Positions 31,079 through 35,119 of a stretch of DNA of 64,000 nt are shown one piece after another. The notes below the pieces were generated by a model that ran no database searches, had not been told where the DNA came from, and saw only the letters and a list, made by a program, of their open reading frames with translations. The number at the start of each line of letters is the position of its first letter. The stretch's first letter is position 1. The DNA is from Myxococcota bacterium. GTDB lineage: Bacteria > Myxococcota_A > UBA9160 > UBA6930. Location of the stretch: contig OZ245002.1 of NCBI GenBank assembly GCA_965223415.1, forward strand, positions 3,910,242 to 3,974,241, written 5' to 3'. The position numbers and the translations under genes are program-made.

Positions 31079-32271
31079 CGGGCGGGCAGGCGGGCGCATG
31101 GCGGGACTGGCTGTGGCTGGCGATCTCGCTGGCGATTCCGCTGCCCTGGATCGTCGTACACGTCCGCGGCGCCCATCCGGCGCCGGAGCTCGTCGCGCTG
31201 CTCGCCGGCGCGGCGATCCTCGGCTCCGCCATGCTGCTCTCCTGGGCGACAGAGCTGGCGGAGAAGGACATTCCCCAGTCCCTGGCCCTGCTGGTGCTCG
31301 CCCTGGTGAGTGTGCTGCCCGAGTACGCCGTCGATCTCTCCTTCGCGATTCGCGCCGCCGAGGATCCGGAGTACGCCCAGTACGCGGTCGCCAACATGAC
31401 CGGCGCGAATCGCCTGCTGATCGGACTCGGCTGGGCCACGGTGGTGCTCGTGGCGTGTCGGCGCAGTCGTACGTCGGAGCTCGAGCTACCGCCGACGCGG
31501 ATCCTCGAGCTCCGCTTCCTGCTGGCCGCGACCGTCTATGCCTTCCTGATCCCCCTCGATGGAAGGCTCTCGCTCCTCGACGCCGCGGTGCTGATCGGCC
31601 TCTTCCTCGCCTACGCCTTCCGGGCCTCCCGCGGCTACGCGGAAGACGTCGAGCTCGTCGGCCCGCCGGCGCGCCTCGAGGCCCGCTTCGGCGACACCGG
31701 TCGCCGCGTGTGGGCCCTGGTCCTCTTCCTGTTCGCCGGTTACGCCATCTGGGTCGCCGCCGAGCCCTTCGCCGAGAGCCTCGTCGCGGTCGGCAAGCGC
31801 ACGGCCATCGACGAGTTCGTGCTCGTGCAATGGGTGGCGCCCCTCGCGTCCGAGTCGCCGGAGTTCATGATCGCGCTGCTCTTCGCCTTCCGGATGCGCG
31901 GTGAGGTGGGGCTCGGGGCGTTGATCTCGTCGAAGGTGAACCAGTGGACGCTCCTGGTCGGGGCGCTCCCCATCGCCTACTGCGTGGCGGCCGGGACCCT
32001 GAGCGGCCTCCTCCTCACCCCACGCCAGAGCGAGGAGCTGTGGCTGACGGCGGCCCAATCGCTCTTCGCCGTGCTCGTGGTGGCGGATCGGGTCTTCCGG
32101 GTCTGGGAGGCCGTGGCGATCGCCGGCCTGTTCGCCGTGCAGCTCGTCTTCCCGAGCCCGGAAGTCCGCATCGCCTTCACCTGGCTCTACCTGGTGCTGT
32201 TCGCCGGCTTGCTGGCCCACTCGTCGGCGCGACGCCGGGCGATGCTCCGGCTCCTTCGGTTCCGGCGCTAG
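31075..32271 (+). CDS. Sodium:calcium/cation antiporter (CaCA family)
   Basis: Alpha repeats SVLPEYAVD...ANMTGANRLLIG and APLASESPE...LISSKVNQW; multiple TM segments. Confidence 0.88.
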   Translation: MTGGQAGAWRDWLWLAISLAIPLPWIVVHVRGAHPAPELVALLAGAAILGSAMLLSWATELAEKDIPQSLALLVLALVSVLPEYAVDLSFAIRAAEDPEYAQYAVANMTGANRLLIGLGWATVVLVACRRSRTSELELPPTRILELRFLLAATVYAFLIPLDGRLSLLDAAVLIGLFLAYAFRASRGYAEDVELVGPPARLEARFGDTGRRVWALVLFLFAGYAIWVAAEPFAESLVAVGKRTAIDEFVLVQWVAPLASESPEFMIALLFAFRMRGEVGLGALISSKVNQWTLLVGALPIAYCVAAGTLSGLLLTPRQSEELWLTAAQSLFAVLVVADRVFRVWEAVAIAGLFAVQLVFPSPEVRIAFTWLYLVLFAGLLAHSSARRRAMLRLLRFRR

Positions 32272-33086
32272 CGGGCGTCCGCCAGCCAGGCGACCGCGGC
32301 TGCCACGTTGTCCCCCGCCCGCTTCTCGCGATGGGAGCCGCAGGCGCGCTCGCAGACCGCCCGGGCCAGGGCGGGGGCGCGCAGGTCGGCGGGCTCCCGC
32401 CCGGCGCCTTGCACCGCGGCGGCGACGGCCGCCGCCGGGTCCTTCACCCCGATTCCTTGCTCGCTCAGCCCGTCGGTCACGCACACCACCGCGCGAACGC
32501 CCGCCAGATCGTGACGCCCGAGCTGGCAGCGGGTGTGGAGGCTCTCCGGGGTCTCCTCGCGGGTGCCCAGGAAGGGGGTCGGTCGGCCGATCCGGGAGCC
32601 CAGCTCGTGCACGCTGCCCTCCGCTCCCACCACGAAGAGGTGGCTGTCGCCGACGCAGGCGTAGAAGAGATCCCCGGTCTCGGGGCGGACGAGGGTGGCG
32701 ACCAGGGTGGTCTCCGAGTCCAGGTGCAGGCCCTGAGCCTTCTCGCGGAGGATGTCCAGGTTCGCGTCGCAGAGGGCGGCGAGGGCGTGACGACCCCAGC
32801 CGGTGAGGAAGCTCGCGTCGTCGCCGGTCCACTGGGGCGCCGGGTGGGCGAGCAGGTGCTCGACCGCCACCTCCGCCGCCTCGAAGCCCGAATGGCCGTC
32901 GGCCACGACCAACAGGGCGCCACCGGTCCCGCGGAAGAATCCGGCGGTGTCCTCGTTGGGATCGGTGTGCAGGTAGCTCTTGGGTGCGCCGCCCCGGGAG
33001 TTGGCGATGGCGACGGGTCCCTCGGCGACCACGTCCACCGCGCCGAGGTGGTCATGCTCCCGGCCACGAAGGACCGCGGACTTCAT
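32268..33086 (-). CDS. PP2C/SpoIIE-family protein phosphatase
   Basis: PNED, VVADGHSG, VGDSH, VCVTDGL, GDNVA motifs. Confidence 0.88.
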   Translation of the reverse strand: MKSAVLRGREHDHLGAVDVVAEGPVAIANSRGGAPKSYLHTDPNEDTAGFFRGTGGALLVVADGHSGFEAAEVAVEHLLAHPAPQWTGDDASFLTGWGRHALAALCDANLDILREKAQGLHLDSETTLVATLVRPETGDLFYACVGDSHLFVVGAEGSVHELGSRIGRPTPFLGTREETPESLHTRCQLGRHDLAGVRAVVCVTDGLSEQGIGVKDPAAAVAAAVQGAGREPADLRAPALARAVCERACGSHREKRAGDNVAAAVAWLADAR

Positions 33087-33172
33087 GGGTCGCAGGATAT
33101 CGGCGCCGTCGCTGGCCTGCGAGTGATCCGGCGCGGTGTATCGGAGGAACCCCTTAGATACTCCCTTCGTCG

Positions 33173-34168
33173 TCAACCCTTCGTGGCGAAGAATTTCTCG
33201 CCAAGGAAGTCCTGGTCGTGGCGGAGCATGCCGTAGATGGCGTGGAGCAGCTTCCGCATGACGGCGACGAGTGCTTGCATCTTGGTTTTGCCCTTGGAGA
33301 GCAGCTTCTCGTAGAAGGCCTTCACGTTCGGTTCCCAGCGTGCAGCGACCATCGCAGGAAGAAAGAGTGCGCGGCGAAGGTGGGCGTTGCCGGTCTTGCT
33401 GATGCGAGCTGGCTTGTGCACAGAGGTGCCCGATTGAAACTGTCGGGGGTCGAGGCCCGCATGCGCGACCCATTGCCGGGTCGTCATGTCCTTGGGCAAG
33501 GTGCCTAGCTCGGCGAGCAACTGGATGCCGGCTGCGTCGGCGATACCCTTGATCGATGTGATGTGGCCGAAGTCTCTGGCGAGCTCGGGGCTCTGCTCGA
33601 TCACCTTCAACGCTTGCTTGCGCAGCCGATCGATTCGCCCCTCCAGGAGCTCGATCAGTTCGCGGATGTCTTGCTTCACGAACTCACTGAGCTCCTCGCT
33701 CTGGTCGTTGGCATGGAGCCGGTTCTTCTCCTGCGTCACGGTCTTGCTCAGAGCCTCCACGCGGCGGGAGAGGGCCCGTACCTCCAGAATTCGGGGGTCC
33801 GGCGGAGTCCAGGCGGAAAACTCCATGCGCATTCCGAACTCGAGAATCGTTTCCGCATCGAGCGCATCCGTCTTGGAGCGTTGAAGCGATGCCTTGGCGA
33901 ACGCGGCAATGGCCCGCGGGTTCGCCACCATCACCTGGGACGCCTTCGCACGGTGAAGCGCGAACGCGAGGTCGAGGCCGTACACCCCGGTCGATTCCAG
34001 GACGACGCGCGCCGTCGCATTCCCCTTCGTGGCCCACCGAATCAGCCTCTGGTGGCCCTTGGGATCGTTCGCAAAGACCAGCCCGCCCTCGCGAGTTCCG
34101 TTCCGGTCGATGGCGACGACGAGCTCCTTCGCCCCGACGTCCACGCCCACGTAATGACACTTCTTCAA
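33173..34168 (-). CDS. IS110 recombinase (DEDD RuvC-like + Tnp domain)
   Basis: VGVDVGAKEL (D), VLESTG (E), KTDALDA (DD), SIKGI, AGLDP..FQSGTS (catalytic Ser), ISKTGNAHLR, VMRKL; TTG start with GGAGGAG RBS. Confidence 0.95.
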   Translation of the reverse strand: MKKCHYVGVDVGAKELVVAIDRNGTREGGLVFANDPKGHQRLIRWATKGNATARVVLESTGVYGLDLAFALHRAKASQVMVANPRAIAAFAKASLQRSKTDALDAETILEFGMRMEFSAWTPPDPRILEVRALSRRVEALSKTVTQEKNRLHANDQSEELSEFVKQDIRELIELLEGRIDRLRKQALKVIEQSPELARDFGHITSIKGIADAAGIQLLAELGTLPKDMTTRQWVAHAGLDPRQFQSGTSVHKPARISKTGNAHLRRALFLPAMVAARWEPNVKAFYEKLLSKGKTKMQALVAVMRKLLHAIYGMLRHDQDFLGEKFFATKG

Positions 34169-34199
34169 GGTCTCTCCTCCCCGTGATAAGCTGGGACCC

Positions 34200-34385
34200 G
34201 GGTCTCCCGACCCTGCACATTCACCTACGGACCTTGTAGACGCAGGCTCTCGGGCCTCGGATACTCCACGGCATGGGTGACGAGGGCGGGAGGCCCATCT
34301 AACGGACAAGCTCTCTGGCTTCAGGCAGCGACGGCCTTTCCCGGGAACCCATCTCGGAGTCTCACTCAGGCCCGAAGAGCCTGCT
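34200..34385 (-). ncRNA. Putative IS110 bridge RNA: target-binding loop 34291-34337, donor-binding loop 34222-34279 (transcript ends approximate)
   Basis: Two stem/internal-loop units with matching inner hairpins; loop strands match the element's own junction (GGAGTATC, TACAAG) and flanks (CGCTGC, CCGTTAGA). Confidence 0.82.
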
Positions 34386-34486
34386 CAGAGGTACAAGAGC
34401 AGCGCGTGCCGGCCCGGATTATCCTGCCCCCCTGATCCGCATGGACGCGGATCCGCCTCAGCCGAACGCAAGGGGATGCTTCGCCC

Positions 34487-35119
34487 ATGGACTGGGTCCG
34501 GCCGGTCTGCCACGAGCTCGGGAACCTGCTGGCAGGTGTCCAGCTCTCGGGGCACTTCCTGGGCGGCGAGCTCTCCGATCGCGATCGCCGGCAGGTGGCC
34601 CGGGACGTCCAGCTCCTGAGTGCCCAGGCCGGCGCATGGGTCGCGCTGATCCGTCCGCTCCAGCTGCGCAAACCGCCGCTCTCCCGGGTGGCACCGGCCG
34701 AGATCCTGGCCGCCCTGCGCCGGAGCGTCGATGAGCTCTTGTGGAAGCCCGACCAGCTCAAGGTGTCGAAGGGCACGCGGCAGTCGGACGTCCGGGTCGA
34801 CTCGGACGCGGTCCACCATCTGCTGGCGCTCCTCGTGAGCGCCGCCCTCGCCGACGGGGGCGCGACCTCCCAGCTCCGCCTGGGCACCCGCCAGCAGTCG
34901 CGGCACCTGGTGCTGGCGCTGACCGATACGGGCCCGGTCCTGCCCAAGCCCACGGCGGTGCCCGCGGCCCGCGGGCGGGAGCTGGCGCTCCAGGTGGGCG
35001 ACGCGATCCTGCGGGCCGGCGGCGGAAGGCTCGCTCTCGTGTCGCGCCGCGTGGGCAATCGCATCGAGCTCTACCTGCCCTGGGCGCCTCGCCGGGCTCG
35101 GGCGGCGCGGCGCGGCTAG
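34487..35119 (+). CDS. Sensor-less histidine-kinase-fold protein (HisKA + degenerate HATPase)
   Basis: H-box CHELGNLL; partial G1 box DTGP; GGGRL...IELYLP; N-box Asn and G2 GxGL absent. Confidence 0.65.
   Translation: MDWVRPVCHELGNLLAGVQLSGHFLGGELSDRDRRQVARDVQLLSAQAGAWVALIRPLQLRKPPLSRVAPAEILAALRRSVDELLWKPDQLKVSKGTRQSDVRVDSDAVHHLLALLVSAALADGGATSQLRLGTRQQSRHLVLALTDTGPVLPKPTAVPAARGRELALQVGDAILRAGGGRLALVSRRVGNRIELYLPWAPRRARAARRG

What the first reader, a model, noticed from the sequence alone, without database searches (positions are those of the whole stretch)
33156..34397. Complete IS110 bridge-recombinase system whose RNA guides can be read and matched to its own donor and target
Seen (minus strand): the element starts CT|TGTAC and ends GGAGTAT|CT, so the excised-circle junction is GGAGTAT-CT-TGTAC and the empty site is CGCTGCT-CT-AAGGG. 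The roughly 230-nt non-coding end holds two similar units. Unit 1 (34291-34337): stem AGGCC/GGCCT, inner hairpin AAGC-CAGAGA-GCTT, loop strands CGCTGCCT (matches left target CGCTGC plus core CT with a 1-nt offset) and CCGTTAGA (7/8 to the reverse complement of TCTAAGGG). Unit 2 (34222-34279): stem CACCCATG/CGTAGGTG, inner hairpin AGGC-CCGAGA-GCCT, loop strands GGAGTATC (8/8 to left donor) and TACAAG (reverse complement of CTTGTA). The recombinase keeps DEDD and the Tnp serine. Established: this is the bispecific bridge-RNA architecture of IS621-type IS110 elements, which also use a CT core. Inference: an intact, probably reprogrammable ortholog from a high-GC host, sitting at an imperfectly matched target. 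The class is known; this member and its guides may not be.
Basis: partly seen in the sequence, partly recalled or inferred. Interest (0 to 1): 0.85.

Follow-up and report, generated by a model that had tools for sequence, protein, structure and literature searches.

The report
IS621-type bridge-RNA insertion sequence, six copies
This is an intact, recently active mobile element of the known IS110 bridge-RNA family, whose guide RNA can be read against its own ends and insertion sites; it is a well-documented new member, not a new kind of system.

Summary
Window 33156-34397 (minus strand) is a 1242-bp IS110-family element. It starts CT|TGTAC and ends GGAGTAT|CT, and the genome holds six letter-identical copies with the same ends.

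The recombinase matches IS621 and ISCro4 and keeps the residues that align to IS621 D11, E60, D102, D105 and S241.

The left end encodes an RNA that can be laid out segment by segment like the published IS621 bridge RNA. This includes the 8-nt left donor guide, the 9-nt discontiguous right donor guide, both handshake dinucleotides, and the eight flipped-out A and syn-G positions.

Across 25 of 151 genomes of the same class the scaffold stems co-vary. The guide strands change together with the flanks and ends.

The preferred target is CGCCGC-CT-AACGG. The window copy is the worst matched of the six: its right half fits 6 of 7, and its left half fits only with a 1-nt bulge.

No RNA or circle-junction data were available, so activity is inferred. 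Verdict: new member of a known kind, of modest interest.

The parts
33156..34397 (-). Whole IS110-family element, 1242 bp counting the CT at both ends (1240 bp plus one core)
   Evidence: Six letter-identical copies in the genome with the same ends. A Logan unitig spans 33154-34397 at depth 105 against about 16 in the flanks.
34396..34397 (-). Left core dinucleotide CT
   Evidence: Read. Present at all 6 copies.
33156..33157 (-). Right core dinucleotide CT
34398..34404 (-). Left target half of this copy, CGCTGCT. It is off-consensus and matches the left target guide only with a 1-nt bulge.
33151..33155 (-). Right target half of this copy, AAGGG. The consensus is AACGG, so there is one mismatch to the right target guide.
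34391..34395 (-). Right donor half TGTAC (left end of the element)
   Evidence: Pairs with the right donor guide. Co-varies with it in relatives.
33158..33164 (-). Left donor half GGAGTAT (right end of the element)
   Evidence: 8/8 to the left donor guide when the core C is included.
33171..33176 (-). -35-like TTGACG, ending 15 nt from the right end and overlapping the stop codon TGA
   Evidence: TTGAC lies at this fixed distance in 15 of 16 distinct related elements. The IS621-family copy L068 has the same geometry. Promoter function is inferred.
34388..34393 (-). -10-like hexamer TACCTC (weak, 2/6), placed 17 bp from the -35 only in the circular right-end/left-end junction
   Evidence: Relatives have TATATC (4/6) and L068 has TATTAT at the same place. 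Inferred.
34367..34381 (-). Putative 5' stem-loop of the bridge RNA (AGGCU-CUUCG-GGCCU). The predicted transcript start is near element nt 17 by analogy with IS621.
   Evidence: Sequence. Position by analogy with L068, where published nt 1 lies 17 nt from the left-end core. Not tested by covariation.
34285..34345 (-). Target-binding loop module (element nt 53-113): outer stem, CGU linker, left target guide, hairpin, GU linker, right target guide, handshake AU
   Evidence: 5 of 8 outer-stem pairs show compensatory changes. Segment map against IS621.
34323..34330 (-). Left target guide CGCUGCCU (6 nt plus core CU)
   Evidence: Matches left flanks of copies and relatives: 175 of 232 strict matches in 29 distinct pairs, with 0 of 2000 permutations as high.
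34299..34305 (-). Right target guide CCGUUAG, complementary to CT-AACGG
   Evidence: 19 of 23 right junctions are 7/7. Relative L061 has AGCGGAG with flank CT-CCGCT.
34297..34298 (-). Handshake dinucleotide AU of the target loop, complementary to donor positions 6-7 (AT)
   Evidence: Same letters and place as IS621 A81-U82.
34221..34280 (-). Donor-binding loop module (element nt 118-177)
   Evidence: 3 of 8 outer-stem pairs are compensatory. Segment lengths are as in IS621 nt 110-177, except for a shorter hairpin.
34260..34267 (-). Left donor guide GGAGUAUC
   Evidence: 8/8 to the right end. GGAGGAUC pairs with AGAGGATC in 4 relatives.
34233..34241 (-). Right donor guide GUCUACAAG: 9 nt pairing discontiguously with CTTGTAC
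   Evidence: 7/7 under the IS621 scheme. The first base is G with donor C14 and A with donor T14.
34231..34232 (-). Handshake dinucleotide GU of the donor loop
   Evidence: Same letters and place as IS621 nt 166-167. Pairs G:C and U:G with target positions 7 and 6 of the consensus site.
34200..34213 (-). Nearly invariant GGGUC-GGGA-GACCC hairpin just 3' of the donor loop; role unknown
   Evidence: Conserved across relatives. An alternative pairing with the spacer is not resolved.
34174..34180 (-). Ribosome-binding site GGAGGAG
   Evidence: Lies 5 nt upstream of the TTG start.
33173..34168 (-). Recombinase gene: TTG start, 331 aa plus stop

Best explanation
The feature is a complete, recently active insertion sequence of the IS110 group, built like E. 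coli IS621.

How it most likely works:
1. Excision joins the right and left ends into a circle with junction GGAGTAT-CT-TGTAC. This places a conserved -35 box (TTGACG, in the right end) 17 bp from a -10-like hexamer in the left end.
2. Transcription from this junction yields a bridge RNA of about 160-185 nt from the left end.
3. The first internal loop of the RNA reads the target. [quoted passage not shown] 4. The second internal loop reads the circle junction. The left donor guide GGAGUAUC pairs with the right end. The right donor guide GUCUACAAG pairs discontiguously with CTTGTAC.
5. A tetramer of the DEDD/Ser recombinase exchanges strands at the CT core.

The window copy is an off-target insertion. 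It was accepted on a good right half (CT-AAGGG, 6/7) and a left half that pairs only across a 1-nt bulge.

What is shown: the anatomy, copy number, conserved residues, scaffold covariation and guide-flank covariation.
What is inferred: transcription, circle formation, catalysis and present-day activity.
For: Copies and ends:
- Six letter-identical 1242-bp copies share the same ends.

Protein:
- Pfam PF01548 (3.7e-26) and PF02371 (1.4e-20).
- NCBIfam NF033542, 218 bits.
- Solved structures: ISCro4 5e-49 and IS621 2.2e-46. D9, E57, D100, D103 and S245-G246 (numbering of the 330-aa translation from 34165) align to IS621 D11, E60, D102, D105 and S241-G242.

RNA compared with IS621:
- Laid beside an annotated IS621-family copy (L068), the published numbering fits L068 exactly.
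- The window RNA shows the same order of segments, identical CGU and GU linkers, an 8-nt left donor guide, a 9-nt right donor guide, AU and GU handshake dinucleotides and a 1-nt linker.
- It also has an A or G at all eight positions that correspond to A43, A67, A116, A150 and G48, G72, G121, G155.

Relatives:
- A covariance model of the RNA finds it in 25 of 151 genomes of the class.
- On 35 aligned matches, 12 of 29 pairs carry compensatory changes. 91.4% of cells are paired against at most 50.5% when partners are slid, and 0 of 500 shuffles reach the score.

Guides against flanks:
- Left target guide against left flank: 175 of 232 strict matches, permutation mean 152, 0 of 2000 as high.
- 19 of 23 right junctions are 7/7.
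- L061 has AGCGGAG with flank CT-CCGCT. L035 has CUUUGC with flank CTCTGC. The G022 guide CUGUUAG goes with flank AACAG.
- Left donor guide GGAGGAUC goes with right end AGAGGATC. The first base of the right donor guide is G or A with donor C14 or T14.

Other support:
- Two unoccupied GCCGC-CT-AACGG sites lie in the same repeat that carries two of the copies.
- 4 of 5 same-genus genomes have the two flanking genes adjacent without the element.
- The -35 box lies at a fixed distance in 15 of 16 distinct elements, with the same geometry as L068.
Against: - There is no direct evidence of the RNA, of a circle junction or of recombination. No RNA run was listed, and the public runs are contigs only, which showed no right-end/left-end joint.
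- The -10-like hexamer of this element is weak (TACCTC, 2/6).
- The single-sequence fold is no better than shuffles (z = -1.2).
- Rfam gave no hit.
- My clade-specific model did not find the IS621-family RNA (best 2.7 bits, at the wrong place). RNA-level homology to IS621 therefore rests on the segment-by-segment comparison, not on a statistical score.
- The alignment used for pair counts was fitted to the model's structure, and the relatives are not independent.
- Three of the six copies (L001, L003, L006) match the guides in register no better than 10% to 68% of random CT sites.
Confidence: 0.88

Rival explanations
1. The element selects its target mainly by protein or structure recognition of a hairpin-forming repeat (GCCGCC-TAACGGACA-GGCGGC). 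On this view RNA pairing is secondary, or acts as a second check ('dual match').
For: - Two copies and both unoccupied perfect sites lie in one repeat of about 140 bp whose start can form this hairpin.
- Right flanks in many genomes share AACGGATCGGCG..TCAGC.
- A 2026 preprint on ISPpu10 reports a sequence-plus-structure logic. I saw only the start of its abstract in the search listing.
Against: - The window copy, L003, L005 and L006 are not in that repeat.
- Relatives with changed guides sit at correspondingly changed sequences, which a fixed protein-DNA code would not give (L061, L035, and the subfamily whose target core is AT).
Confidence: 0.12
2. The copies are a fossil. The guide matches record past activity, and the element no longer moves.
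For: No RNA or circle evidence is at hand. The -10 hexamer is weak.
Against: - Six copies are identical at 1242 of 1242 positions.
- The frame is open and the aligned catalytic residues are present.
- A decayed relative (L007) in the same genome shows what a fossil looks like: 76% identity and a lost gene.
Confidence: 0.06
3. The left-end RNA is a regulator of transposase expression (attenuator or antisense-like) rather than a guide.
For: A conserved hairpin lies between the donor loop and the ribosome-binding site. Small RNAs were earlier proposed to modulate expression in ISPpu9, as cited in a passage of PMC11208160.
Against: Covariation of loop strands with flanks and ends has no place in a purely regulatory model. 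The layout equals that of the experimentally proven IS621 bridge RNA.
Confidence: 0.03

Closest known systems
IS621 of Escherichia coli (IS110 group; bridge recombinase with solved structures 8WT6-8WT9)
   Same: - Same protein domains and the same aligned catalytic residues.
- CT core, and very similar donor halves: IS621-family copy L068 has ACAGTAT-CT-TGTAT, here it is GGAGTAT-CT-TGTAC.
- The left end encodes an RNA with a 5' stem-loop, a target loop and then a donor loop.
- Identical CGU and GU linkers, an 8-nt left donor guide, a 9-nt discontiguous right donor guide, and AU and GU handshake dinucleotides.
- The -35 box lies 15 nt from the right end and the -10 hexamer at left-end nt 5-10.
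   Different: - Only 36% protein identity by tblastn.
- The left target guide is 8 nt rather than 9.
- The right target guide is naturally 7 nt rather than 4.
- The donor-loop hairpin is shorter (14 nt against 22) and the target-loop hairpin slightly longer (14 against 12).
- The 3' linker of the target loop is 1 nt rather than 4.
- An extra conserved hairpin follows the donor loop.
- The host has 71% G+C.
- The target is CGCCGC-CT-AACGG rather than ATCGGGC-CT-AC.
- My RNA model does not score the IS621-family RNA.
ISCro4 transposase (PDB 9T56)
   Same: Best match among solved structures, E = 5e-49 over residues 2-319.
   Different: Only the protein was compared. Its RNA and ends were not examined here.
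IS110-family elements that target repeated palindromic sequences (ISPpu9, ISPpu10)
   Same: Multi-copy IS110 elements inserted in a repeated, hairpin-capable sequence (abstract starts in the listings).
   Different: Only 2 of the 6 copies here lie in the repeat. No sequence comparison with these elements was made.

Membership tests
IS110 family (IS110 group) RNA-guided recombinase | N-terminal DEDD RuvC-like domain plus C-terminal Tnp domain | tested here: met
   PF01548 at 3.7e-26 and PF02371 at 1.4e-20. NF033542 equivalog at 218 bits against a 140-bit cut-off.
IS110 family (IS110 group) RNA-guided recombinase | Catalytic D, E, D, D and the Tnp serine followed by glycine | tested here: met
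   D9, E57, D100, D103 and S245-G246 align to IS621 D11, E60, D102, D105 and S241-G242 (residue list from passages of PMC11208158).
IS110 group element | Long non-coding left end upstream of the gene and a short right end, with no long terminal inverted repeats | tested here: met
   The left end is 229 nt before the TTG start, and 17 nt follow the stop codon.
IS621-type bridge RNA | [quoted passage not shown] | tested here: met
   Stems are supported by 12 of 29 compensatory pairs across 35 matches. The 5' stem-loop is seen in the sequence only.
IS621-type bridge RNA | [quoted passage not shown] | tested here: met
   3 of the 6 own copies score 13-14 of 14, wobble counted, against 0.1% of random CT sites.
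IS621-type bridge RNA | [quoted passage not shown] | tested here: met
   8/8 and 7/7 in the window element, with covariation in relatives.
IS621-type bridge RNA | Handshake dinucleotides 3' of each right guide | tested here: met
   AU and GU sit at the corresponding places, with the same letters as IS621. Their function was not tested, and their covariation in relatives is not informative.
IS621-type bridge RNA | Conserved flipped-out A (A43, A67, A116, A150) and syn G (G48, G72, G121, G155) | tested here: met
   A or G at all eight corresponding positions: element A61, A86, A124, A150 and G66, G91, G129, G155. Positions come from the table and from passages. Their conformations are not testable here.
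IS621-type bridge RNA | Statistical RNA homology to the IS621 bridge RNA or to a curated family | tested here: inconclusive
   No Rfam match. The clade-specific model R1 gives 2.7 bits on the IS621-family locus, at the wrong place. The model has an effective sequence number of only 1.23.
IS621-type element | CT core at both junctions | tested here: met
   All 6 copies.
IS621-type element | Promoter reconstituted across the circle junction | tested here: inconclusive
   The -35 TTGAC lies at a fixed distance in 15 of 16 elements and has the IS621 geometry. The -10 of this element is only 2/6. No transcript data.
IS621-type element | Circular intermediate and RNA-dependent recombination | not testable with these tools
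   Only contigs of public runs were available, and they showed no joint.

The most novel reading that the evidence does not exclude
The insertion record of this clade shows that natural bridge recombination is looser than the full-match IS621 rule, in three ways.

1. The window copy, and relatives L042 and L061, fit their left target guide only with a 1-nt offset or bulge. The window copy and L003 are right-half-only matches. This would be a natural counterpart of the 'half-match' insertions reported in vitro.
2. A sister lineage inserts a CT-core donor into AT-core targets. Its left target guide reads AT while its right target guide reads CT.
3. The clade carries an extra, nearly invariant 3' RNA module.

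If the bulged pairing is real, the targetable and off-target space of bridge recombinases is wider than in-register models predict.
Probability: 0.3. Interest if true: 0.5.

Novelty: new member of a known kind. Interest (0 to 1): 0.3.

Why it matters
The element adds a fully readable, apparently active bridge-recombinase system from a 71% G+C host. Both guides, both handshake dinucleotides, the preferred target and unoccupied sites are all defined, so it is a ready candidate for an ortholog screen.

Its six copies also give a small natural specificity record: three good matches, and three partial matches that include one bulged site. This bears on current work on off-target and half-match insertion.

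It does not change what is known about how the family works.

Tried and rejected
- Single-sequence folding of 34170-34397 gave z = -1.2 and an MFE that pairs the guide strands with each other. It was not informative.
- RNAalifold on 7 close relatives likewise folded the loops onto themselves.
- Rfam gave only a chance miRNA match outside the element. A scan of the target repeat gave only a sub-threshold sRNA match.
- Exact empty allele of the window site: the same-genus genomes keep the two flanking genes adjacent, but the intergenic sequence is too diverged to show the site.
- Public runs: no RNA holder was listed. Four runs laid as contigs showed no right-end/left-end joint and no empty-site joint. 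The loose ends are the flanks of other copies.
- Model R1 on the IS621-family locus gave no meaningful hit. MAFFT aligned only the target-loop half of the two RNAs.
- Right-guide permutation test: only 5 distinct guide-flank pairs, with 407 of 2000 permutations as high, so it carries no weight on its own.
- Alternative long-range helix between the spacer CCCGCCCU and AGGGUCGGG: 96.9% paired but almost invariant (1 compensatory cell, 79 of 500 shuffles), so it is neither supported nor excluded.
- An inversion between copies was considered as the cause of the poor left flanks of L001 and L003. It was rejected on logic, because such an event swaps right flanks and not left ones.
- A donor half-match at the window site was considered and rejected: the left half is 2/7 to the left donor half, and the right half is unlike TGTAC (by eye).
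- The supplementary tables of the bridge-RNA papers, which may list this ortholog, could not be seen.
- Searches for prior mention found no paper holding both 'Myxococcota' and the IS110 or bridge-RNA terms among those listed. That is not proof that the element is unlisted.
Full report
**Observation.** It has CT|TGTAC at the left end and GGAGTAT|CT at the right end. The flanks are CGCTGCT and AAGGG. The left end is non-coding and about 230 nt long, and it holds the two described units. The only long frame is the recombinase gene, 33173-34168 on the minus strand. It has a TTG start preceded by GGAGGAG and encodes 331 aa.

**Boundaries and copy number.** The genome that holds the window is a single 5.83-Mb contig with 71% G+C. 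It contains six copies identical at all 1242 positions. Similarity between copies stops at the CT at both ends. A decayed relative also lies about 4 kb from one copy; its RNA region is 76% identical and its gene is lost. Logan contigs of the best-holding run break at 33154 and 34397, and the repeat unitig has depth 105 against about 16 in the flanks. Four of five same-genus genomes have the two flanking genes next to each other, separated by 91-103 nt, without the element. These genes are an unassigned gene starting at 34487 on the plus strand and a PP2C phosphatase gene starting at 33086 on the minus strand. The intergenic sequence is too diverged to show an exact empty allele.

**Protein.** The protein carries Pfam DEDD_Tnp_IS110 and Transposase_20. 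It meets the NCBIfam equivalog 'IS110 family RNA-guided transposase' at 218 bits against a 140-bit cut-off. Among solved structures it matches ISCro4 (5e-49) and IS621 (2.2e-46). D9, E57, D100, D103 and S245-G246, in the numbering of the translation from 34165, align with IS621 D11, E60, D102, D105 and S241-G242. That residue list comes from passages of PMC11208158. Identity to an annotated IS621-family transposase is 36% by tblastn.

**RNA anatomy compared with IS621.**
- I fetched an E. coli plasmid copy annotated 'IS110-like element IS621 family transposase' as locus L068. The published nucleotide numbering fits it exactly.
- Laid side by side, the window RNA has the same order of segments. 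These are the outer stem, a CGU linker, the left target guide, a 1-nt linker, a hairpin, a GU linker, the right target guide, the AU handshake and the closing stem. The donor loop follows with an 11-nt 5' strand, a 2-nt linker, an 8-nt left donor guide, a 2-nt linker, a hairpin, a 2-nt linker, a 9-nt right donor guide, the GU handshake, a 1-nt linker and a 9-nt 3' strand.
- All eight positions that the structure paper singles out as flipped-out A or syn G have the same base here.
- Differences: the left target guide is 8 nt rather than 9, and the position before it matches flanks poorly. The right target guide is naturally 7 nt. The donor-loop hairpin is shorter than in IS621, the target-loop hairpin slightly longer, and the 3' linker of the target loop is 1 nt.

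**Relatives and scaffold covariation.**
- Protein-based and DNA-based searches gave close relatives.
- A covariance model of the two loops then found the RNA in 25 of 151 genomes sampled from the same class, the window's own included.
- On the 35 aligned matches (33 distinct rows), 12 of 29 pairs have compensatory changes, in 53 cells. 91.4% of cells are paired, against 26-50% when the 3' partners are slid. No shuffle of 500 reaches the covariation score.
- Two caveats apply. The alignment was fitted to the model, and the sequences are related to each other.

**Guides against flanks.**
- In the window's genome the five other copies have these flanks:
  - L002: ..CGCCGC-CT / AACGG
  - L004: ..CGCCGC-CT / AACGG
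  - L005: ..CGCCGC-CT / AACGG
  - L006: ..AGCCGC-CT / AACCC
  - L003..GCTCAC-CT / AACGG
- The right target guide therefore fits CT-AACGG perfectly in four copies.
- CT followed by AACGG occurs at 44 of 653,119 CT sites, the element's own junctions included.
- Scored in register over 14 positions, wobble allowed, three copies reach 13-14. Only 0.1% of CT sites do so. L003 and L006 reach 10 and the window copy 7.
- Across relatives, the left target guide matches its flank at 175 of 232 positions in 29 distinct pairs. The permutation mean is 152, and 0 of 2000 permutations are as high.
- 19 of 23 right junctions are 7/7.
- Four changes are informative:
  - L061 has right target guide AGCGGAG and flank CT-CCGCT.
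  - L035 has left target guide CUUUGC and flank CTCTGC.
  - The G022 element has CUGUUAG, and one of its right flanks is AACAG.
  - Guides with U at position 6 go with T in the flank.
- On the donor side, the left donor guide is 8/8 here and GGAGGAUC goes with AGAGGATC in four relatives. Under the IS621 discontiguous scheme the right donor guide is 7/7. Its first base is G where the left end is TGTAC and A where it is TGTAT. L043 and L060 are exceptions.
- By chance, both donor strings occur in 1 of 20,000 shuffles of the left end.

**Target context.** Only two unoccupied GCCGC-CT-AACGG sites exist in the genome. Both lie in a repeat of about 140 bp, which also carries copies L002 and L004. 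The repeat begins with a possible hairpin, GCCGCC-TAACGGACA-GGCGGC. In one place it abuts an IS21-like element. Right flanks in many other genomes share AACGGATCGGCG..TCAGC.

**Promoter.** TTGAC lies 15 nt from the right end in 15 of 16 distinct elements, overlapping the stop codon. In the circle it would sit 17 bp from left-end nt 5-10, which reads TACCTC here and TATATC in most relatives. L068 has TTGCAG and TATTAT in the same geometry, and its published transcript start is 17 nt from the core. Passages of PMC11208160 describe the reconstituted promoter. For this element, promoter function is an inference, and the -10 is weak.

**The window copy.** Its left flank matches the guide at 2 of 8 positions in register. 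However, CGCTGC followed by one extra T and then CT matches the guide's six non-core bases exactly. That pattern precedes 677 of 653,119 CT sites. Its right half is 6/7. Together with L003 (right half perfect, left half poor), it resembles the single-half-site insertions reported for IS621 in a 2026 preprint (10.64898/2026.08.31.748434; abstract and section 8 read). This is a reading of the flanks, not a test.

**Not shown.** The RNA itself, a circle junction and catalysis were not observed. No RNA run was listed and only contigs could be laid. Rfam has no match, and my model does not reach the IS621-family RNA.

**Verdict.** The element is a new, well-resolved member of the known IS621-type bridge-recombinase family. 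Standard annotation would already name the protein an RNA-guided IS110 transposase. I could not see the supplementary ortholog lists of the bridge-RNA papers, which may include it.

Noticed in passing
Loci L036, L039, L044, L045, L047, L053, L055; empty sites L063 and L066 (genome G125): A sister lineage has a left target guide ending AU and a left junction with AT, but a right junction with CT. Its right target guide and both donor guides read CT. Two unoccupied sites in G125 read GCCGC-AT-AACGG. The natural target core (AT) therefore differs from the donor core (CT), and each junction keeps the core expected from the top-strand lineage.
   Followed up: partly
window 34200-34213 (-), with 34284-34291 (-): A nearly invariant GGGUC-GGGR-GACCC hairpin lies 8 nt after the donor loop. 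It has no counterpart within the 177-nt RNA described for IS621. Its 5' half could instead pair with the equally conserved spacer CCCGCCCU between the two loops. Covariation cannot tell the two apart.
   Followed up: partly
L007 (G000:C1:2528927-2529252): A decayed relative of the element sits about 4 kb from copy L002. Its RNA region is 76% identical and its gene is reduced to fragments. Its left target guide AGCUGCCU still matches its left flank AGCCGC-CT.
   Followed up: partly
L042 and L061: Two relatives fit their left flank only with a 1-nt shift or bulge, like the window copy. L042 has guide AGCUGC against flank AGCCGGC. L061 has guide CACCCACC against flank CACCCGCC one place over (read by eye).
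   Followed up: no
L024 (G000:C1:2071800-2076800) and L025 (G000:C1:2770300-2775300): The unoccupied target sites and several copies lie in regions rich in mobile elements. These include IS21-like istA/istB in about ten copies, an IS5/IS1182-like transposase, and a fragment of a different IS110-family transposase at L024:4340-4966.
   Followed up: partly
L026 (G004:C55): A left-end fragment with the same target loop as the window element lies at a perfectly matched left flank (CGCTGC-CT, 8/8). It is cut off just after the target loop by sequence starting CCTTGTATCGACC, which looks like the left end of another IS110-type element.
   Followed up: no
window 33087-34486: The element sits in the divergent promoter region between a PP2C phosphatase gene (32268-33086, minus) and an unassigned 210-aa frame (34487-35119, plus). 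The recombinase gene points the same way as the phosphatase gene.
   Followed up: no
run X5, loose end at window 34397: A run labelled as another organism holds part of the element, joined to the left flank of copy L006 of this genome. That insertion may therefore be shared with a relative.
   Followed up: no
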